Origin: Parasynechococcus marenigrum WH 8102
GTDB lineage: Bacteria > Cyanobacteriota > Cyanobacteriia > PCC-6307 > Cyanobiaceae
Assembly (NCBI RefSeq): GCF_000195975.1
Contig: NC_005070.1
Span: 840,001-872,000, forward strand
DNA: 32,000 nt
Reading direction: 5' to 3'
Under the pieces are notes generated by a model. It was not told where the DNA came from. It searched no databases and was given only the letters and a program-made list of their open reading frames with translations. A program made the translations under genes and the position numbers. Each line of letters starts with the position of its first letter. Within the stretch, counting starts at the first letter, position 1. Shown here piece after piece: positions 2,378-18,505 of the stretch.

Positions 2378-2409
2378 TGCACTGCCAGTTGGGATCTGGC
2401 GTCTCTTGG

Positions 2410-2457
2410 CAGTCGGGGAGACAGGATTCGAACCTGCGGCATCTTGCTCCCAAAGCA
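2410..2457 (-). repeat. Island boundary repeat (att-like): displaced 3' portion of tRNA-Pro
   Basis: The 48 bp cagtcggggagacaggattcgaacctgcggcatcttgctcccaaagca are identical, base for base, to 18429-18476. That stretch is tRNA-Pro nt 30-74 plus 3 flanking nt. Confidence 0.9.
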
Positions 2458-2610: not shown

Positions 2611-3783
2611 TTGCCACGAGTTTCCGAGACAGAAGCCTGGATCAAGCCCTTTAGGCGTCAGATCGCAGAGACCTGCGGTGAGAGTTGGTACGTCCGCAAC
2701 AATCGCGGTCGAATCCGTTTGGAGGTCCGTGATGCTGGGACCGTTTCACTTCCGTTCGAGTGGACTGCGCGTGGATCAGCGCTTGCCTTGCCCCGCATTC
2801 AACAGATCTTCAAGCGTTGGAACGGTGGACAGATCACCCTTGCCGCTGCAGCACAAAACGCTGACACCAGCAGCGCCCATCAGAAGCTGGATTTCAGCCA
2901 GTTGATCGAGAAATATCGGGCCTTCGTTCCTAACGCTGGCGACACCACCTGGCAGACCTTCTATCTGCCAGTCCTGCGCAACTGCGCCAAGGCATTCGAC
3001 GGCCGACCACCAGTGGACGGTGAAGCGCTGGCAATGGCTTGCCTCTCCCAGTGGGAACAGGGCTCACGGATGCGTCAGACCTCCCGTCAGAAGCTCTACG
3101 GCTTCTTGAACTGGGCGGTGCAACGTGGACACCTCAAGCCCATCTACAGCCCCCCTGCGGCGCTTCCTGAAGTGCTCAAGCCCAAGCGCATTGGCTATCC
3201 CCTCAGCGATGCGCAGATCCTGCAGCTGCTGGACAACCTCCCCGAGGGCGAGGCCCATGACCGTTGGCGATTCGCCATCCAGCTCTGTGCCGTTTACGGA
3301 TTGAGACCTGAGGAATTGCGCCATCTCCGCATCAAGGACGGGGCAAGCGGGGAAGAACTGTGGACGATTTATCAGAAATCCATGGGTGGCACCAAGGGAG
3401 CCAAGACAGAACCGCGGCGGTTGCACCCGCTGCTGCTGCGTGATGCCGATGGTTCCGCCATCGATTGGAAACTGCAGGCACGGTTGCAGGTTGGTGAACA
3501 GCTGCCGCCGTTGAACCGTGACGGTGATGGTGGCCAGGCTTTGAATCAGTACCTACGCAGACGCAAGGTCTGGATGGCGCTGCGGGGTGAAGCCGAGCAC
3601 CAGAGTGAACAGCTCACGCCCTATTCATTTAGGCACCGCTACGCAAAACAGGCTCACGCGGCACGGCTTGCCGTTGCAGAGATCAGCGAGGCCATGGGCC
3701 ACACCATCGAGGTGCATCTGAAGAGCTACGCGCGGTTCAAGCCCGATGCGACGGCTGCCAATTTCGCCGCAGTCAACGTCTGA
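2611..3783 (+). CDS. int: Tyrosine recombinase / phage-type integrase
   Basis: 390-aa ORF. It has box I GLRPEELRHL and box II TPYSFRHRYAKQA...AMGHTIEVHLKSYARF (R, H-x-x-R, H, Y catalytic set). It starts about 150 nt from the att-like repeat. The TTG start from the track is uncertain. Confidence 0.9.
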   Translation: MPRVSETEAWIKPFRRQIAETCGESWYVRNNRGRIRLEVRDAGTVSLPFEWTARGSALALPRIQQIFKRWNGGQITLAAAAQNADTSSAHQKLDFSQLIEKYRAFVPNAGDTTWQTFYLPVLRNCAKAFDGRPPVDGEALAMACLSQWEQGSRMRQTSRQKLYGFLNWAVQRGHLKPIYSPPAALPEVLKPKRIGYPLSDAQILQLLDNLPEGEAHDRWRFAIQLCAVYGLRPEELRHLRIKDGASGEELWTIYQKSMGGTKGAKTEPRRLHPLLLRDADGSAIDWKLQARLQVGEQLPPLNRDGDGGQALNQYLRRRKVWMALRGEAEHQSEQLTPYSFRHRYAKQAHAARLAVAEISEAMGHTIEVHLKSYARFKPDATAANFAAVNV

Positions 3784-3984
3784 TCACTTCTGCTCGTACA
3801 CCTTGCTTTCCAAGGCGTCTAAGCGCTTTAGAACGTCCTTCATCACCCCTTCGGTGCGGGGGGTAAGCGTTTGTTCAGACAGGGTTACCTCAAGTTTAAA
3901 ATTTATTTCAATTTGCTACCATTACAATCACTCCAATTTACTTCGGAAAAAACAAAGGATAATGATTTAGTTGATTCAAGCAAG

Positions 3985-6900
3985 ATGTCTCAATCATATT
4001 CTAGTGTGGGAAAATTAGATAGAAAAAGTTTCAAACCTTCCGGAAGTGATTATATATTATCGCCTCCGTCTTCGTATAGCAAAAGATTTGCGACCAAGTT
4101 CAAGAATTTCAATGCAAAATCGGACGTAATATCAATTGATCTTAGCGATTTTAATACGACATTGACGGGGATTTATATTGCCAGGTCAAAGAAAGAATTC
4201 AAAAAGGCACAGAAATCCGACAGTGCTTTTATCTATAATTGGAAAAATGGGAGATTATTTTTTAACGAAAATGGCAGTGCAAAAAAATACGGTGATGGTG
4301 GACTTATTGCACGTTTTGCAAAGAAGACACGTTTAAATGAAGAAAATATTATTTTCAATTTTGGCATTCATTCAACTTCAACGCCTGATCCAACACCAAC
4401 ACCAAGTTATTCAATAACAGCCGACAAGATTTCAGTCGATGAGGGAGATCGTGTTAATTGGACTATCACTACTAAAAATGTACGAAAAGGAACCAGGATA
4501 TTTGTGTCTGATGTTTTTGAAAGATCGAATAATATTTATGATAATTACAGTGATATGGATGGGTATGCTCTCGGTTCGGATGGATGGGAAAGTTACTATT
4601 TCAAGGTGAATTCAAAGGGTAAAGTTAAATTCTGGGATGAATGGAATGAGGATGGTATCACCGAGGGAGATGATTCTTATTATTATCAGTTTTACGAAGA
4701 TCCTGATTTTACAGAATTACTCGCGACATCTAAGACGGTTGAAATTATCGATACATCACAAGCACCTTCTGCAACTCCAACACCGGAACCAACTCCGGCA
4801 CCTTCTGCAACTCCAACACCAGAACCAACTCCAGAACCTTCTACAACTCCAACACCGGAACCAACTCCTGAACCCTCTACAGACCAGGGATTTCTAGATG
4901 ATTTCGCGAATAATTCATCTACCAGCGGTGTTATTTCTGTCGGGGATATTGTGAGTAGTGACTTGGAAACAACAGACGATGAAGATTGGTTCCAAATTTC
5001 TTTGACGGAAGAAAGAGTTTATCAATTTGATCTTGAGGGGATACAGTTGACTGACCCTCGAATGAGTCTGCATGGGCCTAGTTTAGAGGAATTAATTTAT
5101 GATGACGATGGAGGATCTGGATATAATTCTAAAATTGAATTTATAGCAACGTCGAGTGACAACTATTTTATTAGTGCAAAAAGTTGGGGGGAAACTGGTA
5201 CTTATACTTTGAAGGCAATAGATATCACTCCAACACCGGAACCAACTCCTGAACCCTCTACAGGCCAGGGACTTTTAGATGATTTCGCGAATAATTTATC
5301 TACCAGCGGTGTTATTTCTGTCGGGGTTATTGTGAGTGGTGACTTGGAAACAACAGACGATGAAGATTGGTTCCAAGTTTCTTTGAAGGAAGGAAGAGTT
5401 TATCAATTTGATCTTGAGGGGATACAGTTGACTGACCCTCAAATGAGTCTGCATGGGCCTAGTTCAGAGGAATTAATTTATGATGACGATGGAGGATCTG
5501 GATATAATTCTAAAATTGAATTTATAGCAACGTCGAGTGACAACTACTTTATTAGTGCAAAGAGTTGGTGGGAAACTGGTACTTATACTTTGAAGGCAAT
5601 AGATATCACTCCAACACCGGAACCAACTCCAGCACCTTCTACAACTCCAACACCAGAACCAACTCCAGAACCTTCTACAACTCCAACACCAGAACCAACT
5701 CCAGCACCTGCTACAACTCCAACACCGGAACCAACTCCAGCACCTTCCGCAACTCCAACACCGGAACCAACTCCAGCACCTTCCGCAACTCCAACACCAG
5801 AACCAACTCCAGCACCTGCTACAACTCCAACACCGGAACCAATACCAGTCCCCACACCTGAGCAGGATTCATCACCTACACCAACTGGTAATCCAACAAA
5901 TACAACCGATGGCGTCTTTTTGTATGGACCACGTCCGATGCAATCTGCTATTAAGACATTCTCAGGCACTGTTGGTGTAGGTGGGGAAGTAGATCGCTTT
6001 GAGATTTCATTTTTGGCTGGAGATGTGGTGAGCTTGTCGGTAGAAGCCGCTGACAATACCTGGCCGTTGCTGCGTCTGGTGGATGCAGAAGGACGCATTT
6101 TGGATCCAGTTAGCGCATACAACAACAATTCCGCCTCCACATCTGGTTATCGCGTTGATGTGGATGCAATGTTGTTCGCCGAGGTTTATGCCCAAAACTC
6201 ATTCACTGGCTCCTACAAACTGTATGTAGAGCGTTTTATTAATGAATCCCCACTTCGACCGATACCGAATGAACTATTAATATTGGTAGAACAGGACGCA
6301 ACGAACAGCGCAGATCAATACTCATCACGTTATCTATACTCTGATTCGGGATTGATTTACATCTCATTTGACTCGAGCCTGTCGGACGAACTTAAAAGTT
6401 GGTGGGAAGACGTATTTGCTGCGACGGATGCTGTGATTGAGCCGGAATTCGTGGTAGTTCCACAAAGTCACCCCAAATCACAGTTAGTAGTCAATCAGAC
6501 GTCATCATACTATGTTAGTGGTGATCATGCTGGGATTTATCAGTCTCCTAGTTATACCTATTCAGAGCTAAGCGATGAAAGCGCTTACAATTTTCAGAGA
6601 AAGAATAATCAAGGTGAAATTCTTCTCGCCGAAGCGGCTTTTTCTCATTCGACGCGTTTTGGTGGATCCCGAGAAGCTGGTTGGAAAAGCGTTGCGTTTC
6701 ATGAATTAGGGCATGCCCTAGGCCTAGAGCATCCTCACGACAGCTCTGATGGCGATGTTGATCGAATTATCGATACAAATGGAACAGTAATGTCCTATGA
6801 GAAAACACAGGATTCGGATGGTGATCCTGGCTTCACTGATCTGGATGTAAATGCGCTTCAGTTTGTATATGGCACAGAGACCGGTGTACTAACACCTTCG

Positions 6901-7350
6901 CCTTTAGAAGGGATTCCGCTCTTAATTGAGAGTCGCACATTTGATCTTTCAAAGCGATGGAAGTCGCCAATATTGTCAGCAGAATGGATTGGCGGTTACA
7001 CAATCCAGGAGCCCAGTTCGGGACTGTCAACCAAAGTCCTACAATTAACACGTTCGGAAGGTTATCTAGAAAACGAATCCAAAATTTGGCTGGATTTTGA
7101 TTTGGGAGACGGCCTGAAAAACTGGAATTCCCTTAATGGTTATTCCGAAGGATTTCACGATGTACTAATCCTTGGCAATTCTGTCACGTTTGAACCCGGC
7201 GAGGCCACAGCTTTGTTTGATCTTCCCATTGTTGCTGGAAGTCATGCAGAGAGCGATGAATGGGTGGATGTGACTGTGCGTCCGGAATACCCGGATCTCT
7301 ACAAAGCAGTTCCTGATTCGGCACTGCGGCTGACCATCGTCGATGCCTGA
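3985..7350 (+). CDS. Large multidomain serralysin-type (M10-like) zinc metalloprotease with PT-rich linkers, three PPC-like domains and a Calx-beta-like C-terminus
   Basis: Frame is open from 3871 and the first ATG is at 3985 (MSQSYSS). Zinc motif VAFHELGHALGLEHPHD lies at nt 6700-6735, with Met-turn TVMSY and DLDVNALQFVYG. Two near-identical domains plus one divergent domain have the pre-peptidase C-terminal pattern (DDEDWFQISL...YQFDL...GTYTLKAI). TPTPEPTPAPS linkers are present. The C-terminal VTFEPGEATALFDLPIVAGSHAESDEWVDVTV is Calx-beta-like. GC is very low. There is no N-terminal signal peptide. Confidence 0.85.
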   Translation: MSQSYSSVGKLDRKSFKPSGSDYILSPPSSYSKRFATKFKNFNAKSDVISIDLSDFNTTLTGIYIARSKKEFKKAQKSDSAFIYNWKNGRLFFNENGSAKKYGDGGLIARFAKKTRLNEENIIFNFGIHSTSTPDPTPTPSYSITADKISVDEGDRVNWTITTKNVRKGTRIFVSDVFERSNNIYDNYSDMDGYALGSDGWESYYFKVNSKGKVKFWDEWNEDGITEGDDSYYYQFYEDPDFTELLATSKTVEIIDTSQAPSATPTPEPTPAPSATPTPEPTPEPSTTPTPEPTPEPSTDQGFLDDFANNSSTSGVISVGDIVSSDLETTDDEDWFQISLTEERVYQFDLEGIQLTDPRMSLHGPSLEELIYDDDGGSGYNSKIEFIATSSDNYFISAKSWGETGTYTLKAIDITPTPEPTPEPSTGQGLLDDFANNLSTSGVISVGVIVSGDLETTDDEDWFQVSLKEGRVYQFDLEGIQLTDPQMSLHGPSSEELIYDDDGGSGYNSKIEFIATSSDNYFISAKSWWETGTYTLKAIDITPTPEPTPAPSTTPTPEPTPEPSTTPTPEPTPAPATTPTPEPTPAPSATPTPEPTPAPSATPTPEPTPAPATTPTPEPIPVPTPEQDSSPTPTGNPTNTTDGVFLYGPRPMQSAIKTFSGTVGVGGEVDRFEISFLAGDVVSLSVEAADNTWPLLRLVDAEGRILDPVSAYNNNSASTSGYRVDVDAMLFAEVYAQNSFTGSYKLYVERFINESPLRPIPNELLILVEQDATNSADQYSSRYLYSDSGLIYISFDSSLSDELKSWWEDVFAATDAVIEPEFVVVPQSHPKSQLVVNQTSSYYVSGDHAGIYQSPSYTYSELSDESAYNFQRKNNQGEILLAEAAFSHSTRFGGSREAGWKSVAFHELGHALGLEHPHDSSDGDVDRIIDTNGTVMSYEKTQDSDGDPGFTDLDVNALQFVYGTETGVLTPSPLEGIPLLIESRTFDLSKRWKSPILSAEWIGGYTIQEPSSGLSTKVLQLTRSEGYLENESKIWLDFDLGDGLKNWNSLNGYSEGFHDVLILGNSVTFEPGEATALFDLPIVAGSHAESDEWVDVTVRPEYPDLYKAVPDSALRLTIVDA
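4762..4881 (+). repeat. 36-bp tandem repeat (about 3.3 units) encoding a (A/E)PS(A/T)TPTPEPTP linker
   Basis: Units begin at 4762, 4798 and 4834 with 1-4 substitutions each. They are in frame within the protease gene. Confidence 0.85.
4861..5622 (+). repeat. 2 x 381-bp in-frame tandem duplication (PPC-like domain plus linker)
   Basis: ccaactcctgaaccctctaca recurs at 4861 and 5242, and the next unit boundary falls at 5623. By eye the two 127-codon units differ at about 15 nt. Confidence 0.9.
5608..5859 (+). repeat. 36-bp tandem repeat (7 units) encoding a TPTPEPTPAPS(A/T) linker
   Basis: Units of actccaacaccRgaaccaactccagcaccttcYRca begin at 5608, 5644, 5680, 5716, 5752, 5788 and 5824. The last unit is degenerate. 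Confidence 0.85.
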
Positions 7351-7604
7351 GCGGCACTATCTGAAGGGAATGCTTGTGTGGAGATCTTCAGAATTGCATC
7401 CTGTAAGAATCTAAGAATTACATTCTGTCTTCAATTCAATAGTGAGCCTCAATACTTACGGTACTTTGATGGCTAGGATCTCGAAATCCTGAAACAGACA
7501 TATTGAGTTCCTGTCAAGGTCATAATCATACTTGGCGTTGCAATCAAAATGGACAGGCCTGTAAATCCTCCGTACCTTCAACGTCGAACGCAAATTCCTT
7601 TGCT

Positions 7605-8834
7605 ATGACTGAACTCTCGCCCCTGGTCTCAACCACCACGGGCTTTCTGGTGTTGTTCGTGGGCAAACGCTTGAACCGCGAACTTAAGGCATTGCGAAAC
7701 TTTTCGATTCCAGAACCTGTATCGCGAGGACTTCTCGTAGCCGTCCTTTTGACACTGATACACGTATTGGGTGGGCCCGAACTCAATTTTAACCTGGATT
7801 CTCGGGACTTCCTTCTGGTTTATTTCTTCACCACGGTGGGGATGAATGCCCGTTTCAGTGATTTAAGGCGCGGCGGCCCGGCACTGTTCATTCTTCTGGG
7901 CCTGACCATCGGCTACATGACGTTGCAGAACATCATTGGCGTCACGATGGCGGGTTTGCTGGGGCTTCATCCCGCCACGGGATTGCTCGTTGGCACGGTG
8001 TCACTGATTGGTGGACACGGCACAACGATTGCCTGGGCTCCCACATTTACAGAGAACTTCCAGATTGACAGCGCCCTTGAAATCGGTATTACTGCTGCCA
8101 CCTTTGGACTTGTTCTTGCCAGTGCCAGCGGCGGCCCAATTGCCCAGTTCCTATTACGTCGTTTTAAGATTCCCTGCCCAAGTACAACGCCAGAAGATCA
8201 AACCCTGAAGCACCCAGTCAATGACGTGCAAGATCATGTATCTGGAAAAAGGAATATCGACATGACCTCCTTCCTGGCAGCGCTCTTGGCCATCAATATC
8301 TGCATCATCTCCGGCATGGTGCTGAACGGTGGCATCGCGGCTATCGGCCTGAAGCTGCCTTTGTTTGTGCCCTGTCTGCTGGTCGGCATTCTCTATTCGA
8401 ATCTGCTCCCAGAGAGACGTTCTGAGCGGGCCGTCTTCCATTGGCCAAAACAGTCCACTTCGCTGGATTTAATCAGCGAACTTTCATTGGGAATCTTCTT
8501 AGCCATGTCCCTAATGAGCTTGCAACTTTGGACCTTGGTCGGCCTTGCCTTGCCTTTGCTGGCCATCCTCCTGACCCAGTTCATCATTGCTCTGGCCATC
8601 AATCTGCTGCTCGTATTCCGACTGATGGGAAGGTCGTATGACGCAGCTGTCATCTGCGCAGGCTTTGGTGGGATCGCTCTGGGTTCCACACCAACGGCCA
8701 TGGCAAACATGACCGCCGTTACGCAGCAGTATGGAGCCTCGACGCGAGCGTTTCTAATTGTTCCCTTGGTGTCCGCTTTTTTCCTCGATCTCGTCAATGC
8801 AATTCTGATACCTGGTTTTATTGGGCAGCTCTAG
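7605..8834 (+). CDS. gltS: Sodium/glutamate symporter (GltS family)
   Basis: About 410-aa polytopic membrane protein. FFTTVGMNARFSDLRRGGPALFILLGLT...LQNIIGV...GSVSLIGGHGT-like VGTVSLIGGHGTTIAWAP...ATFGLVLASASGGPIAQFLL matches my memory of E. coli GltS. The track ORF starts at 7503, but the ATG at 7605 (MTELSPLV) removes a non-membrane leader. Confidence 0.8.
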   Translation: MTELSPLVSTTTGFLVLFVGKRLNRELKALRNFSIPEPVSRGLLVAVLLTLIHVLGGPELNFNLDSRDFLLVYFFTTVGMNARFSDLRRGGPALFILLGLTIGYMTLQNIIGVTMAGLLGLHPATGLLVGTVSLIGGHGTTIAWAPTFTENFQIDSALEIGITAATFGLVLASASGGPIAQFLLRRFKIPCPSTTPEDQTLKHPVNDVQDHVSGKRNIDMTSFLAALLAINICIISGMVLNGGIAAIGLKLPLFVPCLLVGILYSNLLPERRSERAVFHWPKQSTSLDLISELSLGIFLAMSLMSLQLWTLVGLALPLLAILLTQFIIALAINLLLVFRLMGRSYDAAVICAGFGGIALGSTPTAMANMTAVTQQYGASTRAFLIVPLVSAFFLDLVNAILIPGFIGQL

Positions 8835-8966
8835 GAAGACAATCATTAATTCCCAATGTAAACCCACGGTGACGTCACGGCAAAGCAAAGGCTAGTGATT
8901 GTAGTTAGTTTCTATAATTTACAAATATCTGGCAAGCAATGCCTCTGTAAATACAGGGGCTTCACA

Positions 8967-9515
8967 CTATCTAAAATGTCCTTTGGGCCAAATTGAAATT
9001 CTCAACATCGGCCCATCACTGGTTATTGGATCATCACCAGCTGGAATCAAACTTGTGGACCAGTCGTAGATGTCTTCATCAGGGTTGAAACTGTGGAAGA
9101 CGACATTGGCTTGCTTCCCTGGTTCAATCGCTGGATTGAAGCGAATACTTAGCTTGTCGCCGCTTTCCGACAAAATAGTCTGTACGAGCCCAGGCTCGCC
9201 GCGACGTCGTAGGCCATATTGACCGAAATACATCTCGGGTTCGCTTCGACCCCAATCCCAGTGATGGTTATTGGTGAGCTGTGAAAGAATCAAGAATTCC
9301 AGTTCCGCCCCAGCATCCTCTGGGACACGAATACTGATGGTGGTTCGGTTGCGGAGTCCTTCGGTTTTCTCAGGATTGTGAATGCTGACTTCCGTCGGTG
9401 CTTTCGTGAAAACGGTTTGTCCAGAAGCTAGGTCGCTGCTCAGCAGAAGAGCGAAACCACTCAGCAGATGAAGGGTGAATCTGATCAAAGGATGTTTTGT
9501 CGGTGATGAGGTCAC
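8967..9515 (-). CDS. Exported protein, DUF2808-like (182 aa)
   Basis: Has a signal-like N-terminus (LLSGFALLLSSDLASGQ). The layout TVFTKAP...ISIRVPEDAGAELEFLILSQ...RRRGEPG...LSIRFNPAIEPGK...IPAGDDP...LRISI resembles the cyanobacterial DUF2808 family as I recall it, not database-checked. Its ATG overlaps the upstream stop (ATGA at 9515-9512). Confidence 0.6.
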   Translation of the reverse strand: MTSSPTKHPLIRFTLHLLSGFALLLSSDLASGQTVFTKAPTEVSIHNPEKTEGLRNRTTISIRVPEDAGAELEFLILSQLTNNHHWDWGRSEPEMYFGQYGLRRRGEPGLVQTILSESGDKLSIRFNPAIEPGKQANVVFHSFNPDEDIYDWSTSLIPAGDDPITSDGPMLRISIWPKGHFR

Positions 9516-9757
9516 TGCTGCTCTGTTCGGTATGGGCTCTCTTGATCGTTGATGACCTTGATGGAGCAGGTCACACCACCATCGGAATTTCCTTGACTGT
9601 CGTGGCTGCCATCACAGTCGACAAGCTCTAAGCGGGTTCCAGGTCCAACTTCCACTCGTCCCTTCTTCCGGAAGAACACCTCACCATCACGAGCAAGGCC
9701 TGGCGCAGCAAATGAAACAAGCGCCAGAGCAGTGAATAGTGCTTTCAATCCAAACAA
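9512..9757 (-). CDS. Small secreted protein (81 aa, 2 Cys)
   Basis: TTG start. Signal peptide MFGLKALFTALALVSFAAPGLA. The stop overlaps the start of the downstream gene. Confidence 0.5.
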   Translation of the reverse strand: MFGLKALFTALALVSFAAPGLARDGEVFFRKKGRVEVGPGTRLELVDCDGSHDSQGNSDGGVTCSIKVINDQESPYRTEQQ

Positions 9758-9766
9758 AGTCGTTGA

Positions 9767-10018
9767 TCAGAGGATACCGAGAGGACCTTTCTTCTTCTTG
9801 CAATAGCCCATGCCGATGTTCATCCACCCCGATTGACAGGCCTCACCGTTGGTAGGAGCCACCTCGTAGTAAATGGGGGAAACGCAAGTAGTGCCAAAGG
9901 TGTTGACGTATCCCAGTGGGCACTCGTCATGACCTTCAGCCTTGGGGATTTCCTTCTGGGCTAGAGCAGGCGTAGCAGAAGCCAATACCAGGGAGGCTGT
10001 GAGCAGAGCTTTGAGCAT
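9767..10018 (-). CDS. Small secreted cysteine-rich protein (83 aa, 4 Cys in the mature part, C-terminal KKKKGPLGIL)
   Basis: Signal peptide MLKALLTASLVLASATPALAQ. Its ATG (10018-10016) overlaps the TGA of the upstream 53-aa ORF (TGATG). Confidence 0.6.
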   Translation of the reverse strand: MLKALLTASLVLASATPALAQKEIPKAEGHDECPLGYVNTFGTTCVSPIYYEVAPTNGEACQSGWMNIGMGYCKKKKGPLGIL

Positions 10019-10179
10019 CAGAAAAGGAAGTAAGCCAGAAGGAAGCCAATGATCAGGCCTTTGACCCAGACGAGGGCAGCCATCCCATATTCAGTCAGAC
10101 CGAGCTTCTTCCTGATCCAAAGGAAGGCCTGCTCATCAGCGAAGAGAACAGCTCGGATAGGGCGAACAATCCAGTCCAT
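10018..10179 (-). CDS. Unannotated 53-aa tail-anchored membrane protein
   Basis: Below the ORF-track size cutoff. My translation is MDWIVRPIRAVLFADEQAFLWIRKKLGLTEYGMAALVWVKGLIIGFLLAYFLF. Both its start (10179-10177) and its stop (10020-10018) sit in TGATG overlaps with the neighbouring genes. Confidence 0.55.
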   Translation of the reverse strand: MDWIVRPIRAVLFADEQAFLWIRKKLGLTEYGMAALVWVKGLIIGFLLAYFLF

Positions 10180-10430
10180 CACTGCCCAACCAGTTGCAGG
10201 TATTTCGCCACGTCACCACCGTTGCAGTAGTGGACAGCGACTGGGCGCTCAATGAATCCACCCTTGCCCTCTACATCGGTGAACTCGACGCCAGCCAGGT
10301 TGATGATCCCCGTCTCAGCGTTCTTGACGCAGTTCACAAACTCCTTTGATTGCTTAGCCACCGGGAGTAGGAGGACCAGCCCAGCAAGAACAGCAGCTCC
10401 GACCAGACCCTTCTCAACGTTGGGATTCAT
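10179..10430 (-). CDS. Small membrane-anchored or exported protein (83 aa, 2 Cys)
   Basis: ATG start. Hydrophobic N-terminal segment GLVGAAVLAGLVLLLPVA. It is the first gene of a tightly overlapped minus-strand gene string. Confidence 0.55.
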   Translation of the reverse strand: MNPNVEKGLVGAAVLAGLVLLLPVAKQSKEFVNCVKNAETGIINLAGVEFTDVEGKGGFIERPVAVHYCNGGDVAKYLQLVGQ

Positions 10431-10809
10431 TCGGTGTGGATTGTTACCAGACAGGTTTTAGGCGTGAGCCTGACTCTTGTCCACGTGAACGGGGTCAAAT
10501 CCAGCAAAACAGAACTATCACTCACCATTGAGGGCGGATAAACACCACATCAACAGAGCACCTGATTCACCGGTACCAGCTCCACTCCTTACGAAAGACG
10601 CCTTTACCAACTGGATATTCCAACAGTTGGCCGTTGAGTAGTGGACAACTACGCAGAAGCGACGAAGCTATGAGTACATGCAAGTTCAAGGCAGCCGATC
10701 TAGGTCACCGATCCACTGCCACCAGCCAAAGAGAAGAAGCGTCGAGGCAGCCATCAGCGCAAGCCTGAAAAGAACGGGTTCTGCAAACCACAACTGAGGA
10801 TCAACAACC

Positions 10810-11433
10810 ATGGAAACCAAGACACGAAAAGCAGCCACAGCTCACAAGATCATCGAGGCAGGAGAAGGTGTTCTGAATCTGGTCTGGGGCAAAGCCGATG
10901 AAAGGAGAGCAGCTTCGCTTGAGATCATTGCTCGCACTGCTTACACAGCAGAGGAGAGTGCCTGCCACTACCTAGAGACCATTGGTCTCGATAAAGAAGG
11001 CACGATCAGGGACACATTGGAACTGGCTCGTTACCAGGACACCAATGAGCAGACCCACGAGGACATTTTCGCCAGGGATCTAGATGGATTGAAGAACTGG
11101 GGTGACCGCTTCTTAGCCAGACACATCGCCGTGGTCATCTATTGGGTGTTCGCCATCACAACCCTTATTGACCATGAGATGGCTGCCTTGCTGGGTGAGG
11201 CCGTTGAGGTCGAGGCAGTCAAGACGTACAGGCGGATGCTGAAGGAGCAACCAGAGGAGTGGCTAGACCAGCCAGCAGCACCAACCGCAACTCACTACTG
11301 GGAGAAGCCCAACAGCATGTGGCGAGTAAGAGGTGACCATATGCCTGGCTCTATGCGTGACGTAGTGGAAGCGATCGTTAGAGACGAAGCAGACCACGTC
11401 AAAGCCAATAGCAAGAAAGCAACAGCTTTTTAA
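10810..11433 (+). CDS. ptox: Plastoquinol terminal oxidase (PTOX, alternative-oxidase family di-iron protein)
   Basis: All four AOX/PTOX iron-ligand motifs occur in order: LEIIARTAY, NEQTHE (E-x-x-H), EVEAVKTY and RDEADH (E-x-x-H). The length of 207 aa is in the range of cyanobacterial and cyanophage PTOX. Confidence 0.85.
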   Translation: METKTRKAATAHKIIEAGEGVLNLVWGKADERRAASLEIIARTAYTAEESACHYLETIGLDKEGTIRDTLELARYQDTNEQTHEDIFARDLDGLKNWGDRFLARHIAVVIYWVFAITTLIDHEMAALLGEAVEVEAVKTYRRMLKEQPEEWLDQPAAPTATHYWEKPNSMWRVRGDHMPGSMRDVVEAIVRDEADHVKANSKKATAF

Positions 11434-11490
11434 TCGGAGACTGAAATGCTTGCGATTGATTACCTGGTGTAATCCGTTGTTGCGCCACTG

Positions 11491-11644
11491 CCCGATGAGA
11501 TCGACCTACAGCACTGCGAGGAGTGCAGTATCAGTGGGTTTGCGGGTCTCCCTGACGGTGGGTTGACCGTTAGGTCGGCTGAGGCGTAACAGCGGGGAAT
11601 ATCTCAGGCAGTCACGTCTGACCAATGCCTCAAGACACCTGCAT
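11491..11644 (+). repeat. Copy A of a conserved GC-rich non-coding element (about 154 nt)
   Basis: Aligns block-wise with 13473-13639. Shared blocks are CCCGATGAGAT, CAGCACTGCGAGGAG, CCCTGACGGTG, CGTTAGGTC, GCAGCGGGGAA and an identical GGCAGTCACGTCTGACCAATGCCTCAA. Contains the hairpin CCTGACGG-8nt-CCGTTAGG. Confidence 0.7.
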
Positions 11645-11843
11645 CTCCCTGTTCCTACTGGCTGAACTGTTTGCAGCACTGCAAGCCAATGCCTCTGACC
11701 TGTTCAAGCGGTGGCTGTATGGGGGTATCCAAGACCTAGGTGAAGCTGCCGTGACGGAGCTACTGCTGGATTGGATTGACCCGTTCATCACCCGAGTCGA
11801 GAGGGACAGGATTGTGACGTGGCACCTGGGAGTGAGCCTCTAA
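11625..11843 (+). CDS. Hypothetical protein (72 aa), possibly the 5' part of a frameshifted gene
   Basis: Its ATG lies inside the conserved end of repeat copy A. The next frame is open from 11836 and overlaps this stop. Confidence 0.35.
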   Translation: MPQDTCISLFLLAELFAALQANASDLFKRWLYGGIQDLGEAAVTELLLDWIDPFITRVERDRIVTWHLGVSL

Positions 11844-11874
11844 CCAGAACGGCATCAAGCCCAGCATCAGGACA

Positions 11875-12099
11875 GTGGCAGAAGGGCTGCCTCAGCACTC
11901 TGCTGAAGCGATCAGGTCCAGCATCAAGCGGCTGAGAGGCAAGGAGTGGCTGCTGGGAGAGGGCAGATCCAAAGGACCTGAGATCGTGCCTGATGGAAGT
12001 GGTGCCAAAGTTTCTTTTAGACACCCACTCCCTTTGAAAAAGGCCATGGCCCATAAAAAATGGCCCATAAATTTTGGATGTGGGCCATTCGGGTCATGA
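11875..12099 (+). CDS. Hypothetical protein (74 aa), weak HTH-like segment
   Basis: GTG start. AEGLPQHSAEAIRSSIKRLRGKEWLL looks HTH-like. The 3' end is made of the ATGGCCCA repeats, which argues against normal coding there. Confidence 0.25.
   Translation: MAEGLPQHSAEAIRSSIKRLRGKEWLLGEGRSKGPEIVPDGSGAKVSFRHPLPLKKAMAHKKWPINFGCGPFGS
12042..12088. promoter_or_regulatory. Operator-like cluster: ATGGCCCA x2 direct repeats plus one inverted TGGGCCAT
   Basis: ATGGCCCATAAA occurs at 12046 and 12060 (14-nt spacing). The reverse complement TGGGCCAT is at 12081-12088. The palindrome GGCCATGGCC is at 12042-12051. Confidence 0.4.
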
Positions 12100-12391
12100 G
12101 ATATGTGCCGCGCATAATTGCAGTCAGTGACTGGTGTTTCCCTTGATATGGGCTGTGTGTAGTGGTGTGTGTGTTGGGAGGAGAGAGTGTTATTCCACTT
12201 CTGCTGTCATCTGATCAGCAGCAAGCACCGGTTCACCAGAGGCTGACGACTAAAAAGCTCTATCTACGGCATTTCAAGCGCTCTTGGTGGTCTGCTGATG
12301 TGATGACTTCTTGGAACTCCCTTCTCTAGGTGTGGCTATCCGCAGTGCTTGAAGCCATGGCTTCTATCTCTCGGCAGTCAGGATTTGTGGT

Positions 12392-12652
12392 ATGGAAAGA
12401 AAGATTCGCCAGACCTACAGACCACGTGGCCACAGATGGCTGGTGAATGTTGACCAGCACAAGGTTGTTGAGTTCCAGCCCGAAGAGCCAACAGCAGATG
12501 GTCAGTGGGTGACACTGCGCACCTTTCACTGGCGCCCGCCTGATTGCCCGATTCCTGAGACGCGTCGACGGATGGCTAGACACAAGGCCATTGAGGCTTG
12601 GGAGACAATGGTTAGTACCGGATGGCGGCGATGTTCACCACCAGTGAGATGA
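12392..12652 (+). CDS. Small basic Trp-rich protein (86 aa), possibly DUF1651-like
   Basis: ATG start, no overlapping alternative apart from the 3' end. The C-terminal ARHKAIEAWETMVSTGWRR resembles small marine-picocyanobacterial families, from memory only. Confidence 0.45.
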   Translation: MERKIRQTYRPRGHRWLVNVDQHKVVEFQPEEPTADGQWVTLRTFHWRPPDCPIPETRRRMARHKAIEAWETMVSTGWRRCSPPVR

Positions 12653-12744
12653 TCCTGGCGTCATAGGGAATGCCAGCATCTTCGGGATGCGCCTCAGCCC
12701 ACCGGCAACGTATGCCTCCCAGCAATCGCCCACGTCGCCGACGA

Positions 12745-12963
12745 TCAGGATCGGAGCGATAGACGTCCTCCAGAAATTGAATTGTGCAAAAGGTCGGATG
12801 CGTACCTGCGTCCAGCTTTGTTCGCATCGGTGATTGACTTAAAGTTTCCTACAAAGTCATATTCACGCCCATCAATCGTGGCAGAAACGGCGTATAGATT
12901 CTGATTCACCTTTTGGACGCTCCAGCGCAAAACGCAGGCCGGAGTTTTCTTTGAAGCATTCAT
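12745..12963 (-). CDS. Hypothetical protein (72 aa), possibly frameshifted with 12612-12827
   Basis: Track ORF that overlaps a second minus-strand ORF in another frame. No motif recognised. Confidence 0.25.
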   Translation of the reverse strand: MNASKKTPACVLRWSVQKVNQNLYAVSATIDGREYDFVGNFKSITDANKAGRRYASDLLHNSISGGRLSLRS

Positions 12964-13140
12964 TCTTCTCTCCTGATCGGACGAAGAACATAAGCCGCAG
13001 GGAACCAGAGACTCGCTAAAGATTATTATTTCGCAAATAAGTATTTATTTTCTGTTCATATTCTACTCAAGAAGTTCTGTGAAGATATCTATTGAATGAC
13101 GCTTTTTTGCGCAAGCTACCAGAAAAGGGAGGAATGCCCC

Positions 13141-13374
13141 ATGAAATTGTTTGCATATTCCGTCTCGGTCCTTTTGATATCAGCAGCACCTGCGCACTCT
13201 TCCAGCGACAAGCAAGTCTTCCTGTCAATGAAGAAGTTTGAGCAGTTGGCTGACAGGGCACATGCCTTTTGCGCGAGCGTTGACCTTGAGTTCTCTCAAA
13301 AGTTCTATGACTGCATGGACCAGAAGATGCATGGAATTTATATCGACAGCAGCACGGTTAGATCACGTAATTAA
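13141..13374 (+). CDS. Small secreted protein (77 aa)
   Basis: The ATG at 13141 is preceded by AAAAGGGAGGAA (a Shine-Dalgarno-like site). Signal peptide MKLFAYSVSVLLISAAPAHS. Low GC, like the adjacent protease cassette. Confidence 0.6.
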   Translation: MKLFAYSVSVLLISAAPAHSSSDKQVFLSMKKFEQLADRAHAFCASVDLEFSQKFYDCMDQKMHGIYIDSSTVRSRN

Positions 13375-13472
13375 TATGAATACGGGTCCTTCCTGTGTAG
13401 TACAGCGTAGGTCAATTCGGACCTCCTTCATCATTTAGTGCCCGATAAGTTTGGCCTAAATGGGGCCATCAA

Positions 13473-13639
13473 CCCGATGAGATTGCCCGGCAGCACTGCG
13501 AGGAGATGCATCAGCGATGGGTGGTGTGTGACTGCCCTGACGGTGTGCTGGGGAGGCTTTGGTGGTGGGTTAGTCGTTAGGTCTGCAGCGGGGAACACTT
13601 CTGGCAGTCACGTCTGACCAATGCCTCAAAATACCGCAT
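13473..13639 (+). repeat. Copy B of the conserved GC-rich non-coding element (about 167 nt)
   Basis: Has the same blocks as copy A. The hairpin is kept as CCTGACGG-~30nt-TCGTTAGG (C to U gives G.U). It is GC-rich yet embedded in low-GC DNA on both sides, and it ends about 97 nt upstream of the second metzincin ATG. Confidence 0.7.
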
Positions 13640-13735
13640 TGTAATGTTCCTTTAGGAGGGGTAATATCAAGAAATAGTGACATTAATTGACTCAGCGCAA
13701 GTCAATTCTAATATTGTATATATCGCAAATTATCA

Positions 13736-15001
13736 ATGAAACCGATTGAGGCAATTGAGCTAATTATGTCTCAAGCCCATATTGACGACATGAAGACTAT
13801 TGTCGGCAGCGACTTAATCTTAGACATATACATATCACCAGGAGGAGAACCTCACATAGCGTGGGATGATAGAGCGCAAGAGGACGTGGAAACTATAACT
13901 AAAAAGCCGGCCGAATGGCAATATAAAGTAATGCGTGAAGCCATGGAGAGAGTCAACAGGGAATTTGATATTACCATTGACGAGGTTGAATATGAACAGC
14001 TTTCAGACACACAAATAAAGCTAACGACCGTTCCTAATTCGGATGCCGTGAATGGTGAATGGATAAGAAGTTGGGATAACAGCGGGGTTGCGGATATTTA
14101 TCTATCGATGACATATCAGAGTGGCCTGGAGGGTAGTAAATATCCAGATGCCCATGAAAATCCTGACAAATATACTCATGACGAATGGGAAAAATCCGAG
14201 TGGAAAAAGATTTTTATTCATGAACTTGGCCATTTGCTTGGCCTCGAACATCCTTGGGACAAAGATGATGGAGACTGGGCAGTTGATGGTCCAGACGTAG
14301 AAACAGAGAAAACGATCATGGGATATGAAAGTAGGGATGCCAGCGGCAAAGTAATGGACTGGTTCCAGGATGTAGATCAGCGCGCTTTGAAACAAATATG
14401 GGGTGCATCAACAGCTAATCCCGAACCAACTCCTGAACCGGTTCCAACCCCTACTCCAGAACCAACGCCTGCAACTGTTCTTACACCCACGCCAGAACCA
14501 CCGCCAACGCCATCTCTAGAACTACCACCATCGCCATTATCACCACCAATTGATGGTGACTTCTCATCTCTACCACCCGACTTATGGCTGTCGCAAACTC
14601 ACGACGTCATCATTCAATCAGTTCGTGGTAAGGGTAAATTAAAGGGTAAGAAAGGTGCAGATGCCTTCTATTTTAATTCCTTTGAGGCATTTACTAAAAA
14701 GTCTGCTGACAAGATCATTGGATTTAAAGCATCGCAAGACACAATTGCCGTAAGTCCCGATGCGTTTCCTGCATTGGAAGGTGTCTCCGCTATCAGGTTT
14801 GCATCGACCAAGAGCAAAAATGAATTAAAGCAATTATCCAAGGAGGATTACGATTTTGTCTATTTTGAGAAAAAAGGTCGGCTCTACTTCGATGGAAATG
14901 GCGCAGAGAAGAACTGGGGAAACAGTGATGAAGGAGGTCTTGTGGCAATCCTGAAAGGAAAGCCTGAGCTAACTGTTGAAGACATCACACTGCTTGCTTG
15001 A
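13736..15001 (+). CDS. Serralysin-type (M10-like) zinc metalloprotease with a PT-rich linker and a C-terminal post-RTX-like module
   Basis: Zinc motif IFIHELGHLLGLEHPWD at nt 14219-14254, Met-turn TIMGY and QDVDQRALKQIWG. The linker is NPEPTPEPVPTPTPEPTPA. The C-terminus is GKKGADAFYF...DKIIGF...DTIAV...FVYFEKKGRLYFDGNG...GGLVAILKG...LTVEDITLL. Low GC and no signal peptide. Confidence 0.85.
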   Translation: MKPIEAIELIMSQAHIDDMKTIVGSDLILDIYISPGGEPHIAWDDRAQEDVETITKKPAEWQYKVMREAMERVNREFDITIDEVEYEQLSDTQIKLTTVPNSDAVNGEWIRSWDNSGVADIYLSMTYQSGLEGSKYPDAHENPDKYTHDEWEKSEWKKIFIHELGHLLGLEHPWDKDDGDWAVDGPDVETEKTIMGYESRDASGKVMDWFQDVDQRALKQIWGASTANPEPTPEPVPTPTPEPTPATVLTPTPEPPPTPSLELPPSPLSPPIDGDFSSLPPDLWLSQTHDVIIQSVRGKGKLKGKKGADAFYFNSFEAFTKKSADKIIGFKASQDTIAVSPDAFPALEGVSAIRFASTKSKNELKQLSKEDYDFVYFEKKGRLYFDGNGAEKNWGNSDEGGLVAILKGKPELTVEDITLLA

Positions 15002-15025
15002 TAAAGCTTCAACTGCAAACCCATA

Positions 15026-15051: not shown

Positions 15052-15060
15052 GATGGGTAC

Positions 15061-18394: not shown

Positions 18395-18431
18395 TTCGCG
18401 CAAGCGGTTTGGGGAATCGCTGAGATGTCAG

Positions 18432-18505
18432 TCGGGGAGACAGGATTCGAACCTGCGGCATCTTGCTCCCAAAGCAAGCGCGCTACCAAACTGCGCCACT
18501 CCCCG
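18432..18505 (-). tRNA. tRNA-Pro: tRNA-Pro (anticodon UGG)
   Basis: A 74-nt cloverleaf folded by hand: CGGGGAG-UG-GCGC-AGUUUGGUA-GCGC-G-CUUGC-UUUGGGA-GCAAG-AUGCC-GCAGG-UUCGAAU-CCUGU-CUCCCCG-A. CCA is not encoded. Confidence 0.93.

What the first reader, a model, noticed from the sequence alone, without database searches (positions are those of the whole stretch)
3985..15001. Two low-GC serralysin-type metzincins lacking RTX repeats, with the post-RTX-like module at opposite ends of the protein
Both ORFs have HExxHxxGxxHP (nt 6700-6735 and 14219-14254), a Met-turn and the D.D..AL..(Y/W)G segment. This is the serralysin flavour, with Pro after the third His. Neither has an N-terminal signal peptide, and I see no GGxGxD nonapeptide repeats. 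A module of about 100 aa is shared: D.I..(I/F)...D.I...F(I/V)Y....G.L(F/Y)F(N/D).NG....GGL(I/V)A...L..E(N/D)I. It looks like the segment that follows the RTX repeats at the extreme C-terminus of type-I-secreted proteins. In the 421-aa protein it is C-terminal (about nt 14633-14998). In the large protein it is N-terminal (about nt 4048-4390). An N-terminal copy cannot serve as a classical C-terminal T1SS signal. No T1SS genes are in the window. The domain shuffling, the absent export signals and the foreign composition make this an unusual protease pair.
Basis: partly seen in the sequence, partly recalled or inferred. Interest (0 to 1): 0.8.

Follow-up and report, generated by a model that had tools for sequence, protein, structure and literature searches.

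The report
Portable serralysin tail on two exported proteases
Two low-GC zinc proteases on a mobile island of the marine cyanobacterium Synechococcus WH8102 share a roughly 110-residue domain derived from the secretion tail of serralysin proteases; it sits at the C-terminus of one (the usual place) and at the N-terminus of the other, where it cannot be an ordinary secretion signal.

Summary
Both ORFs carry HExxHxxGxxHP at the stated coordinates and a Met-turn followed by Tyr. Neither has a GGxGxD repeat or a signal peptide. The shared module aligns at E=5e-12.

The ORFs are SYNW0881 and SYNW0889 of Synechococcus sp. WH8102. They lie on a 16-kb island at tRNA-Pro that resembles a tycheposon.

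The module is homologous to the end of serralysins, meaning the last degenerate RTX repeat plus the cap. It is a large portable family: 2023 protein clusters, nearly all from marine Synechococcus. In 248 of 288 proteins examined it ends at the last residue, usually with an acidic-then-hydrophobic tail, on many different cargo enzymes.

The N-terminal copy is not an accident. Thirty-five proteins share that layout, including the WH8102 paralogue SYNW2352. Their modules form a separate, strongly basic subgroup (net charge about +14).

Published exoproteomics found SYNW0881 and SYNW2352 outside the cell, induced by a heterotroph.

Most likely reading: both are proteases exported without the Sec pathway. 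The C-terminal module is a minimal type-I-style secretion domain. The N-terminal variant has been repurposed, probably for retention at the cell surface.

This is a new variant of a known kind. Its function is untested.

The parts
2407..2457 (.). attL: 51-nt copy of the 3' half of tRNA-Pro, marking the left boundary of the island
   Evidence: Direct repeat D3, 98% identical to 18426-18476
2611..3783 (+). Tyrosine recombinase (integrase), facing into the island
   Evidence: Pfam Phage_integrase E=1.6e-7
3985..7350 (+). Large metalloprotease SYNW0881 (1121 aa from the ATG; the alternative TTG at 3871 gives 1159 aa)
   Evidence: ORF list; exact match to WP_197525354.1 / CAE07396.1; detected in the exoproteome
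4048..4365 (+). N-terminal copy of the module (N-type, basic; aa 22-127)
   Evidence: BLASTP to the small protein's module E=5e-12; module HMM; net charge +12, pI 10.0
4405..4758 (+). Unassigned domain (aa 141-258) after the N-terminal module
   Evidence: No Pfam hit; conserved in P0122 and P0123
4846..5607 (+). Two tandem PPC (pre-peptidase C-terminal) domains, a 381-nt duplication, flanked by Pro/Thr-rich linkers (4759-4881 and 5608-5904)
   Evidence: Pfam PPC E=9.8e-9, two stretches; repeat D2 96% identical and D1 linker repeats
5938..6246 (+). Third, divergent domain preceding the protease (aa 652-754); no fold assigned
   Evidence: Conserved across the family alignment A2; no significant Pfam hit
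6247..6885 (+). Metzincin catalytic domain; HELGHALGLEHP at 6700-6735, Met-turn VMSY at 6787-6798
   Evidence: Motifs; Pfam Peptidase_M10 25.0 bits on this segment; PDB profile hit to serralysins E=2.4e-5; Foldseek hits to MMPs and alkaline protease E about 2e-5
6970..7347 (+). C-terminal Calx-beta-like domain ending in the conserved tail ALRLTIVDA
   Evidence: AF2 model pLDDT 89; Foldseek NCX1 CBD1 2dpk E=1.7e-7; tail conserved across homologues
13736..15001 (+). Small metalloprotease SYNW0889 (421 aa; RefSeq starts at the second ATG, 13766, giving 411 aa)
   Evidence: ORF list; cluster members; homologues conserve the first 10 residues
13736..14413 (+). Metzincin catalytic domain; HELGHLLGLEHP at 14219-14254, Met-turn IMGY at 14315-14326
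   Evidence: Motifs; Pfam Reprolysin_4 25.6 bits, Peptidase_M10 23.1 bits; PDB profile hit to serralysins E=6e-7
14414..14605 (+). Pro/Thr/Glu-rich linker
   Evidence: Sequence
14606..14998 (+). C-terminal copy of the module (C-type): degenerate RTX-like repeat (14624-14674), ADKIIGF..DTIAV element, cap, and the extreme tail EDITLLA
   Evidence: NCBIfam Zn_serralysin aa 291-341 to profile 347-397; Pfam Peptidase_M10_C E=0.008; alignment to 6ixx residues about 345-402; AF2 model and Foldseek hits to serralysins
15732..16988 (-). AAA_25 ATPase, a probable replication or mobility gene of the island
   Evidence: Pfam AAA_25 E=2.9e-19
18426..18505 (-). tRNA-Pro(tgg) and attR, the integration site and right boundary of the island
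   Evidence: ARAGORN; Rfam; repeat D3

Best explanation
The two genes are SYNW0881 and SYNW0889 of Synechococcus sp. WH8102. They are cargo of a 16-kb low-GC integrative island at tRNA-Pro. Both encode zinc endopeptidases of the serralysin branch of the metzincins that leave the cell without a Sec signal peptide.

The shared module, about 105-130 aa, descends from the C-terminal end of serralysins: the last RTX repeat, the 'AD-x-I-x-F...D-x-I' strand, and the capping sandwich with an acidic-then-hydrophobic extreme C-terminus. The calcium-binding repeat body has been lost.

In marine Synechococcus this remnant has become a portable cassette. It is joined, often through Pro/Thr linkers, to the extreme C-terminus of many unrelated enzymes. 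Inferred: there it acts as the uncleaved secretion signal and folding cap for an unlinked ABC-type (type I) exporter. SYNW0889 is an ordinary member of this class.

In the SYNW0881/SYNW2352 family an old, diverged and strongly basic version of the module sits at residue 1 onward. It cannot lead the chain into a channel that takes the C-terminus first. Inferred, with less confidence: export of these proteins depends on their own conserved Calx-beta C-terminus (...LRLTIVDA). The basic N-terminal module would then be the last part to emerge and would hold the acidic protease on the anionic cell surface or at the exporter.
For: Shown by tool results:
- Catalytic motifs and Met-turn-Tyr.
- Closest solved relatives are serralysins, and the large protein's catalytic part has a metzincin fold plus a Calx-beta domain.
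- Module homology between the two proteins.
- Module to serralysin C-terminus: NCBIfam Zn_serralysin hit on aa 291-341. The profile alignment runs from the zinc helix, skips the beta-roll, and resumes at the last RTX repeats plus 'AADTLMDFQTGLDKIDLT' of 6ixx. hhalign against the tails of RTX-bearing paralogues gives E=4e-5. The AF2 model's top 18 PDB matches are all serralysins or CylK.
- Family size: 2023 cluster representatives.
- Position: 248 of 288 module proteins end within 5 residues of the C-terminus, and 228 of those 248 have an acidic residue followed by a hydrophobic tail such as DITLLA, NLEFI or DFTIV.
- Orthologous protease domains carry, in place of the module, true RTX repeats or DUF4214.
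- Cargo includes SGNH esterase, PPC arrays and propeller-like repeats, all without signal peptides.
- The N-type architecture occurs in 35 proteins. N-type modules are each other's nearest neighbours in 33 of 36 cases and have lost the 'AILKGxPxLT' motif. Their net charge is +13.6 against +0.5 for C-type, and the rest of both proteins has pI about 4.

From the literature:
- SYNW0881 rose 5.1-fold and SYNW2352 4.3-fold in the WH8102 exoproteome when co-cultured with Ruegeria. The authors' tools predicted no signal peptide and 'non-classical' secretion for both (PMC4949707).
- T1SS substrates travel C-terminus first, and a folded N-terminal domain stalls the substrate with its C-terminal part exposed on the cell surface (PMC4648471).
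Against: - No exporter has been identified. No ABC, MFP or OMP gene lies in the window or beside 23 related loci.
- The module's fold match to serralysins is weak by E-value (best 0.04, none at or below 0.001; model pLDDT 73). The module profile alone finds nothing significant in the PDB by sequence.
- The module lacks acidic Ca-binding repeats, so the calcium-ratchet logic of RTX secretion may not apply.
- Tandem double modules and module-only proteins exist (P0029, P0127, P0128). These fit a binding domain better than a signal.
- Exoproteome detection was at low abundance, in samples that also contained lysis products. SYNW0889 was seen in only one replicate.
- The retention role of the N-type module is inference from charge and position only.
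Confidence: 0.55

Rival explanations
1. The module is a non-covalent anchoring domain in both positions, binding the cell surface, the S-layer or LPS (functionally like SLH or dockerin modules). It is not a secretion signal. Export uses some other route, such as an unrecognised signal, vesicles or lysis.
For: The module works at either end of a protein, occurs in tandem pairs and in module-only proteins. It is joined by Pro/Thr linkers typical of binding modules. C-type copies on different cargo average 79% identity, which suggests one common partner. The N-type is highly basic. PSORTb placed SYNW0881 and SYNW2352 in the outer membrane.
Against: A pure binding domain would not need to end exactly at the last residue in 248 of 288 cases, with an acidic-hydrophobic tail. 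It would also not need to alternate with genuine RTX tails on orthologous proteases. Its homology is to the secretion end of serralysins. The cargo proteins have no other recognisable export signal.
Confidence: 0.25
2. The module is a position-independent recognition tag for a dedicated exporter, so the N-terminal copy is itself a working, non-classical N-terminal secretion signal.
For: N-module proteins without signal peptides reach the exoproteome: SYNW0881, SYNW2352 and SYNW1556. Among relatives of the large protease, some carry a Sec-type signal peptide in place of the N-module (P0338-P0348), which hints that the two features are interchangeable.
Against: Other family members have neither an N-module nor a signal peptide, yet keep the conserved C-terminal tail (P0281, P0311). 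Known T1SS translocation is C-terminus first (PMC4648471). The N-type has lost the C-type terminal motif and differs sharply in charge.
Confidence: 0.12
3. The N-terminal module is an artefact: an assembly chimera through the Pro/Thr repeats, a recent in-frame gene fusion, or a mis-called start that hides a signal peptide.
For: The gene contains long near-identical repeats. A MAG scaffold of the same locus has N-gaps there, and another assembly has one PPC copy fewer. An upstream TTG start exists.
Against: The identical 1121-aa protein occurs in the finished WH8102 chromosome and in several independent assemblies. Thirty-five diverged proteins (down to about 35-50% identity) share the layout, with the module starting at residues 1-15. 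Peptides spanning the PPC, protease and Calx-beta parts of the one annotated protein were seen by mass spectrometry.
Confidence: 0.02

Closest known systems
Serralysins (MEROPS M10B: Serratia serralysin, P. aeruginosa AprA, Dickeya PrtC)
   Same: HExxHxxGxxHP zinc site, a Met-turn followed by Tyr, and the 'D..A.Q..YG' segment. They are the best solved-structure matches by sequence for both families. The end of the small protein aligns with the last RTX repeats and post-RTX strand. There is no Sec signal.
   Different: No canonical GGxGxD beta-roll. Scores are far below the curated family threshold (36 against 500 bits). A Pro/Thr linker separates protease from tail. The large protein adds PPC and Calx-beta domains and carries the tail homologue at its N-terminus.
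C-terminal secretion domains of type I secretion substrates (HlyA, PrtG, lipase TliA/LARD)
   Same: An uncleaved domain at the extreme C-terminus of otherwise signal-less extracellular enzymes. It ends in an acidic residue plus hydrophobic residues, as I recall for the protease/lipase class (Ghigo and Wandersman 1994, cited in PMC4648471; from memory, not tested). It is transferable between cargo proteins.
   Different: Only one degenerate repeat instead of a Ca-binding RTX block. No linked ABC/MFP genes. A homologous copy exists at the N-terminus, which has no precedent I know of among classical substrates.
Caulobacter RsaA N-terminal anchoring region and the Sap protease
   Same: In a T1SS-secreted surface protein system, a surface-anchoring region lies at the N-terminus of RsaA, with a secretion signal at its C-terminus. 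The C-terminal half of a metalloprotease (Sap) resembles that N-terminal region of RsaA (PMC3034196). This is the closest analogue for one module appearing at opposite ends.
   Different: No sequence relationship was tested or expected. In Caulobacter the relocated piece resembles the anchoring region, not a homologue of the secretion domain.
N-terminal retention modules of T1SS adhesins (LapA, MpIBP)
   Same: An N-terminal domain of a C-terminus-first substrate that keeps the protein at the cell surface. This is the proposed working model for the N-type module.
   Different: No homology is known. There is no LapG-type di-alanine site in the first 300 residues. This comparison rests on my own knowledge of those systems.
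Tycheposons (cargo-carrying integrative elements of marine picocyanobacteria)
   Same: Integration next to tRNA-Pro(tgg) with a partial tRNA repeat, an inward-facing tyrosine recombinase at one end, a small replication-type module near the other, and niche-related cargo (bioRxiv 10.1101/2020.12.28.424599).
   Different: Tycheposons were defined in Prochlorococcus. Integrase lineage and hallmark gene profiles were not tested here.

Membership tests
Serralysin family (M10B; NCBIfam NF035945) | Extended zinc motif HExxHxxGxxHP | tested here: met
   Present in both proteins at aa 906-917 and 162-173
Serralysin family (M10B; NCBIfam NF035945) | Met-turn followed by the zinc-ligand Tyr (MxY) | tested here: met
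   VMSY and IMGY, aligned to serralysin 'MSY'
Serralysin family (M10B; NCBIfam NF035945) | Metzincin catalytic fold | tested here: met
   Large protein: AF2 pLDDT 89, Foldseek hits to MMPs and alkaline protease 1g9k at E about 2e-5. Small protein: sequence profile only, not modelled
Serralysin family (M10B; NCBIfam NF035945) | C-terminal Ca-binding beta-roll of GGxGxD nonapeptide repeats (PF00353) | tested here: not met
   No GGxGxD and no PF00353 hit; only one degenerate repeat, GKKGADAFYF
Serralysin family (M10B; NCBIfam NF035945) | Score above the curated family threshold | tested here: not met
   NF035945: 36.3 bits against a cut-off of 500. Pfam PF00413 is borderline: 21.9 and 23.1 bits for the whole proteins, 25.0 for the large protein's catalytic segment, against a cut-off of 24
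Type I secretion substrates | No cleavable N-terminal signal peptide | tested here: met
   No clear hydrophobic N-terminal stretch in the large protein; the small protein's peak lies at aa 22-33 and includes Asp residues. Homologue N-termini show none. Published SignalP and LipoP calls are negative for SYNW0881
Type I secretion substrates | Secretion domain at the extreme C-terminus | tested here: inconclusive
   Met for SYNW0889 (module ends at the last residue, tail EDITLLA). In SYNW0881 the module is N-terminal; its own tail LRLTIVDA is conserved but of unknown function
Type I secretion substrates | Dependence on an ABC transporter, membrane fusion protein and outer-membrane channel | not testable with these tools
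   No such genes in the window or in 23 related loci. They could be unlinked; the whole genome could not be scanned
Type I secretion substrates | Protein found outside the cell | tested here: met
   Literature, not my own experiment. SYNW0881 was in all three co-culture exoproteome replicates and rose 5.1-fold. SYNW0889 was in one replicate (PMC4949707)
Tycheposon-like integrative island | tRNA-adjacent integration with a partial tRNA direct repeat and an inward-facing tyrosine recombinase | tested here: met
   tRNA-Pro(tgg) at 18431-18505; 51-nt repeat at 2407-2457 and 18426-18476; integrase at 2611-3783
Tycheposon-like integrative island | Tycheposon-specific integrase lineage and hallmark gene profiles | not tested
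   Only a Pfam AAA_25 hit for a possible replication gene

The most novel reading that the evidence does not exclude
A homologue of a type I secretion tail has been moved to the N-terminus and turned into a basic 'last-out' tether. On this reading, SYNW0881-type proteases are threaded out C-terminus first and remain displayed on the Synechococcus surface by a copy of the very domain that other substrates use to get out. Alternatively, the exporter recognises the module at either end. Either case would be a previously undescribed mode of type I substrate architecture, used by an abundant ocean phototroph for heterotroph-induced surface proteolysis.
Probability: 0.2. Interest if true: 0.75.

Novelty: new variant of a known kind. 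Interest (0 to 1): 0.52.

Why it matters
- Marine Synechococcus releases many enzymes that lack signal peptides, and the route is unexplained. A single portable tail of about 110 residues, present in some 2000 protein clusters, would give a sequence rule for predicting that 'non-classical' exoproteome. It would also be a compact tag for engineering secretion in picocyanobacteria.
- The N-terminal variant offers a natural experiment on what such a tail does when it cannot be a C-terminal signal.
- These proteases are induced by a heterotrophic bacterium and travel on a mobile island alongside a glutamate symporter. That links horizontal transfer to phototroph-heterotroph interaction and organic nitrogen acquisition.
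- WH8102 is a cultured model strain with existing insertional mutants (for example swmA), so the predictions should be directly testable.

Tried and rejected
- The module profile against PDB sequences gave nothing significant (best E=0.06, an antibody).
- Pfam on 25 module sequences gave only a weak PF08548 hit on one member.
- A scan of viral contigs for the module found no relatives.
- A search for exporter genes next to module genes found no recurrent neighbour family and no ABC motifs.
- Rfam on the window found only the two tRNAs.
- No LapG-type cleavage site was found.
- I considered and rejected an assembly or fusion artefact, and a hidden signal peptide from the TTG start (see the fourth rival explanation).
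- I considered the N-module as a protease pro-domain and rejected it. It is separated from the catalytic domain by several domains and long linkers, and it also occurs in proteins with no protease domain (P0125, SYNW1556).
- Full-text searches for SYNW0881, SYNW0889 and SYNW2352 found no paper discussing the module.


Full report
**1. What is there**

The window has a GC content of about 0.61-0.63, except for a stretch of roughly 16 kb at about 0.50. A 51-nt direct repeat bounds that stretch: 2407-2457 and 18426-18476, 98% identical. The repeat is the 3' half of tRNA-Pro(tgg), which lies at 18431-18505 on the minus strand. A tyrosine recombinase gene (2611-3783) faces inward at the left end. 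An AAA_25 ATPase gene (15732-16988) lies near the tRNA end. This is the layout described for cargo-carrying tycheposons, which use tRNA-Pro(tgg) among their sites (bioRxiv 10.1101/2020.12.28.424599).

The island's cargo includes:
- the two protease genes;
- a Na+/glutamate symporter;
- a DUF2808 protein;
- a plastoquinol-oxidase-like AOX protein;
- several small ORFs.

No gene in the window resembles an ABC exporter, a membrane-fusion protein or a TolC-like channel.

**2. Identity of the genes**

An exact-sequence look-up shows that the large ORF is WP_197525354.1 / CAE07396.1, that is SYNW0881 of Synechococcus sp. WH 8102 (Parasynechococcus marenigrum). The small ORF contains SYNW0889 (sequences also printed). 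GenBank starts SYNW0881 at the TTG at 3871 (1159 aa), whereas RefSeq and metagenome gene callers start it at the ATG at 3985. RefSeq starts SYNW0889 at the second ATG (411 aa). Homologues conserve the ten residues upstream of that start, and L9 is invariant in alignment A3. The start at 13736 is therefore more likely.

**3. Checking the observation**

Both proteins have a Met-turn followed by Tyr (VMSY and IMGY). Neither has a GGxGxD match.

BLASTP between the two proteins gives two independent significant segments:
- the catalytic cores, at E=7e-13;
- the module, at E=5e-12, N-terminal in the large protein and C-terminal in the small one.

The protease genes have GC of 0.43-0.44, and the N-terminal module 0.34.

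**4. The catalytic domains**

Whole-protein Pfam hits are sub-threshold or marginal: Peptidase_M10 scores 21.9 and 23.1 bits against a cut-off of 24, and Reprolysin_4 scores 25.6. The isolated catalytic segment of the large protein reaches 25.0 bits.

Family profiles are clearer. An alignment of 55 relatives of the large protein's C-terminal part (A2) finds serralysins as its best PDB matches. The top hit is Serratia protease 1af0 at E=2.4e-5, and the alignment covers the zinc helix, the Met-turn and the 'DI.A.Q..YG' segment. An alignment of 31 relatives of the small protein (A3) does the same, with alkaline metalloprotease 6ixx at E=6e-7.

An AlphaFold2 model of large-protein residues 741-1121 is confident (pLDDT 89.0, pTM 0.86). 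Foldseek matches it to two things:
- metzincin catalytic domains (MMPs, and the psychrophilic alkaline protease 1g9k at E about 2e-5);
- Calx-beta domains for the last roughly 125 residues (NCX1 CBD1 2dpk, E=1.7e-7).

The proteins fail the curated serralysin threshold (36 against 500 bits) and lack the beta-roll. They belong to the serralysin branch by similarity, but they are not members of that family as curated.

**5. The module and its origin**

Several independent lines tie the module to the very end of serralysins:
- NCBIfam's serralysin model hits small-protein residues 291-341 against model positions 347-397 of 462.
- Pfam Peptidase_M10_C hits the start of the module weakly (E=0.008).
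- In the A3-to-6ixx alignment, HMMER runs from the zinc site, skips the beta-roll body, and resumes where 'gdiiksvrgkgklkgtkvada..ksadkiigf..Gdtievd' pairs with 'NDIIYGGGGADKLWGGSGSDTF...AADTLMDFQTGLDKIDLT'.
- A profile-profile comparison with the tails of RTX-bearing paralogues aligns the same 37 columns (E=4e-5, probability 69%).
- The AF2 model of the module (pLDDT 72.8, pTM 0.74) has 18 top PDB matches that are all serralysin-family proteases or CylK. TM-scores on the query are 0.46-0.53 and probabilities reach 0.95.

That last line is weak on its own. The Foldseek E-values are only 0.04-0.3, and the module profile alone finds nothing significant in PDB sequences. Taken together, the evidence shows that the module is a reduced serralysin tail: one degenerate RTX repeat, the post-RTX strand and the cap.

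**6. How common the module is, and where it sits**

An exhaustive profile search of 1.84 billion cluster representatives finds 2023 proteins at E<=1e-3, 922 at E<=1e-10 and 168 at E<=1e-30.

Among the 288 module-bearing proteins I held, 248 end within five residues of the module's end. Of those 248, 228 have an acidic residue followed by a hydrophobic tail such as DITLLA, NLEFI or DFTIV.

The cargo joined to the module is varied: SGNH esterase, PPC arrays, propeller-like repeats, other hydrolases and the small-protease family. None has a signal peptide.

The small-protease catalytic domain also occurs with other tails: a second flavour of the module, genuine RTX repeats (PF00353), or DUF4214. 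This is the pattern expected of interchangeable export or surface modules.

A genome scan found the module only in marine Synechococcus and Cyanobium genomes, apart from two contigs in MAGs labelled as other taxa, which may be mis-binned. Several copies occur per genome, always at ORF C-termini. Another carrier, P0104, also lies in a low-GC island next to an integrase. Tandem double modules and apparently module-only proteins exist as well.

**7. The N-terminal copy is a conserved architecture**

Searching with the protease plus Calx-beta part of the large protein returned a family in which about 30 cluster representatives of 590-670 aa share one layout:
- the module at residues 1 to about 110, starting essentially at the initiator Met;
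- a linker;
- a conserved domain of unassigned fold;
- the protease;
- a Calx-beta domain ending in a strongly conserved '...LRLTI(V/I)DA'.

Close relatives of the window's own N-terminal region show the same thing, sometimes with different downstream domains. Adding these gives 35 N-type proteins.

Some family members have neither the module nor a signal peptide (P0281, P0311). A more distant branch (P0338-P0348) has a typical Sec-type signal peptide and no module.

N-type modules differ from C-type modules in several ways:
- They cluster together. In 33 of 36 cases the nearest neighbour is another N-type module.
- They are more diverged, with mean identity 43%, against 68-79% within the C-types.
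- They lack the leading degenerate RTX repeat.
- They have replaced the C-type 'AILKGxPxLT' motif.
- They are strongly basic. Mean net charge is +13.6 and pI 10.2, against +0.5 and pI 7.1 for C-type modules. The rest of both window proteins has pI about 4.

An assembly or fusion artefact is excluded. The identical protein occurs in the finished WH8102 chromosome and in several independent assemblies. Copy number of the 381-nt PPC repeat does vary: P0240 has only one copy.

**8. Experimental evidence from the literature**

Christie-Oleza et al. 2015 (PMC4949707) analysed WH8102 exoproteomes. NP_896974.1 (SYNW0881) was detected in all three replicates of a co-culture with Ruegeria pomeroyi and was 5.1-fold up relative to axenic culture. 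NP_898441.1 (SYNW2352) was 4.3-fold up. Both were described as hypothetical proteins with protease and adhesion domains, part of a 'predator-type response'. The authors' tools gave no SignalP or LipoP signal, 'NC' (which I read as non-classical) from SecretomeP, and 'OuterMembrane' from PSORTb.

I confirmed that SYNW2352 carries an N-type module at residues 6-110 (E=1e-28). I also confirmed that SYNW1556, a roughly 205-aa protein with no protease domain seen once in the same data, carries one. SYNW0889 was detected in only one replicate.

These samples also contained abundant cytoplasmic proteins. The detection therefore supports export but does not prove it. The four SYNW0881 peptides visible in the stored part of the table come from the PPC, pre-protease, protease and Calx-beta regions, not from the N-module. 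At about 7.6% sequence coverage that absence is uninformative.

**9. Mechanism**

Established knowledge: T1SS substrates carry an uncleaved C-terminal signal and are threaded C-terminus first. A folded N-terminal domain stalls the substrate, leaving the C-terminal part exposed on the cell surface (PMC3034196; PMC4648471). WH8102 makes the RTX S-layer protein SwmA.

The best-supported reading is therefore as follows. The C-type module is a minimal T1SS-style secretion and cap domain, and SYNW0889 is a routine carrier of it.

For SYNW0881 the module cannot act that way. The conserved Calx-beta C-terminus is the candidate leading end. The basic N-type module would emerge last, where it could hold the very acidic enzyme on the anionic envelope or at the exporter.

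Every step after 'homologous to the serralysin tail', 'located at the extreme C-terminus' and 'found extracellularly' is inference. The main rival is that the module is a surface-binding domain at both ends. The N-terminal copies, tandem copies and module-only proteins support that rival. The strict terminal position and the terminal motif argue against it.

**10. Comparison with known systems, and novelty**

The closest known systems are:
- serralysins, which share the catalytic signature and the origin of the tail, but these proteins have no beta-roll and fall below family thresholds;
- classical T1SS signals;
- the Caulobacter RsaA anchor and Sap protease precedent for one region appearing at opposite ends;
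- the N-terminal retention modules of T1SS adhesins, an analogy only, since there is no LapG site.

The genes themselves are annotated and one is in a published exoproteome. Source annotations such as 'serralysin-like metalloprotease' on module carriers suggest that the module's resemblance to the serralysin C-terminus has already been picked up. I found no description in the searchable literature of three things: the module as a portable terminal cassette of this size, its basic N-terminal subfamily, or the contrast between the two.

I rate this a new variant of a known kind, of moderate interest. It is directly testable in a cultured model strain.

Noticed in passing
window 2407-18505: The low-GC region is a discrete 16-kb integrative island: 51-nt tRNA-Pro(tgg) half-site repeats, an inward-facing tyrosine recombinase and an AAA_25 gene. 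It fits the published description of cargo-carrying tycheposons. WH8102 is reported to have ten GC-anomalous regions next to phage-type integrases (PMC3744912).
   Followed up: partly
window 4846-5607: A 381-nt tandem duplication (96% identical) encodes two PPC domains. Another assembly of the same gene (P0240, 994 aa) has a single copy, and a MAG scaffold (L001) has N-gaps here. Copy number is therefore either variable or collapsed during assembly.
   Followed up: partly
window 11488-11650 and 13470-13650: An intergenic element of about 160-200 nt is repeated downstream of the AOX gene and just upstream of the small protease gene (cores 88% identical). It has no Rfam match and its function is unknown. 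It could be a cassette junction or a shared regulatory element.
   Followed up: partly
window 7503-8834: A Na+/glutamate symporter (GltS, Pfam E=2e-110) lies immediately downstream of the large protease on the same strand. This suggests a cargo theme of acquiring amino acids and peptides.
   Followed up: no
window 13736 vs 13766; 3871 vs 3985: Public annotations disagree on both start codons. For SYNW0889 the upstream ATG (13736) is supported by conservation of the first ten residues in homologues. For SYNW0881 the ATG at 3985 is favoured over the TTG at 3871.
   Followed up: yes
window 9512-10430 (- strand) and 13096-13374 (+): Four small ORFs (81-92 aa) have hydrophobic, signal-peptide-like N-termini and no Pfam match. 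They lie among the island cargo.
   Followed up: no
outside the window: SYNW2352, SYNW1556 (WH8102); loci L006, L012, L015: WH8102 has at least two more proteins with N-type modules: SYNW2352, a paralogous protease, and SYNW1556, a 205-aa protein with no protease domain. Both were seen in the exoproteome. In other Synechococcus genomes, module-bearing genes often sit two to a locus.
   Followed up: partly
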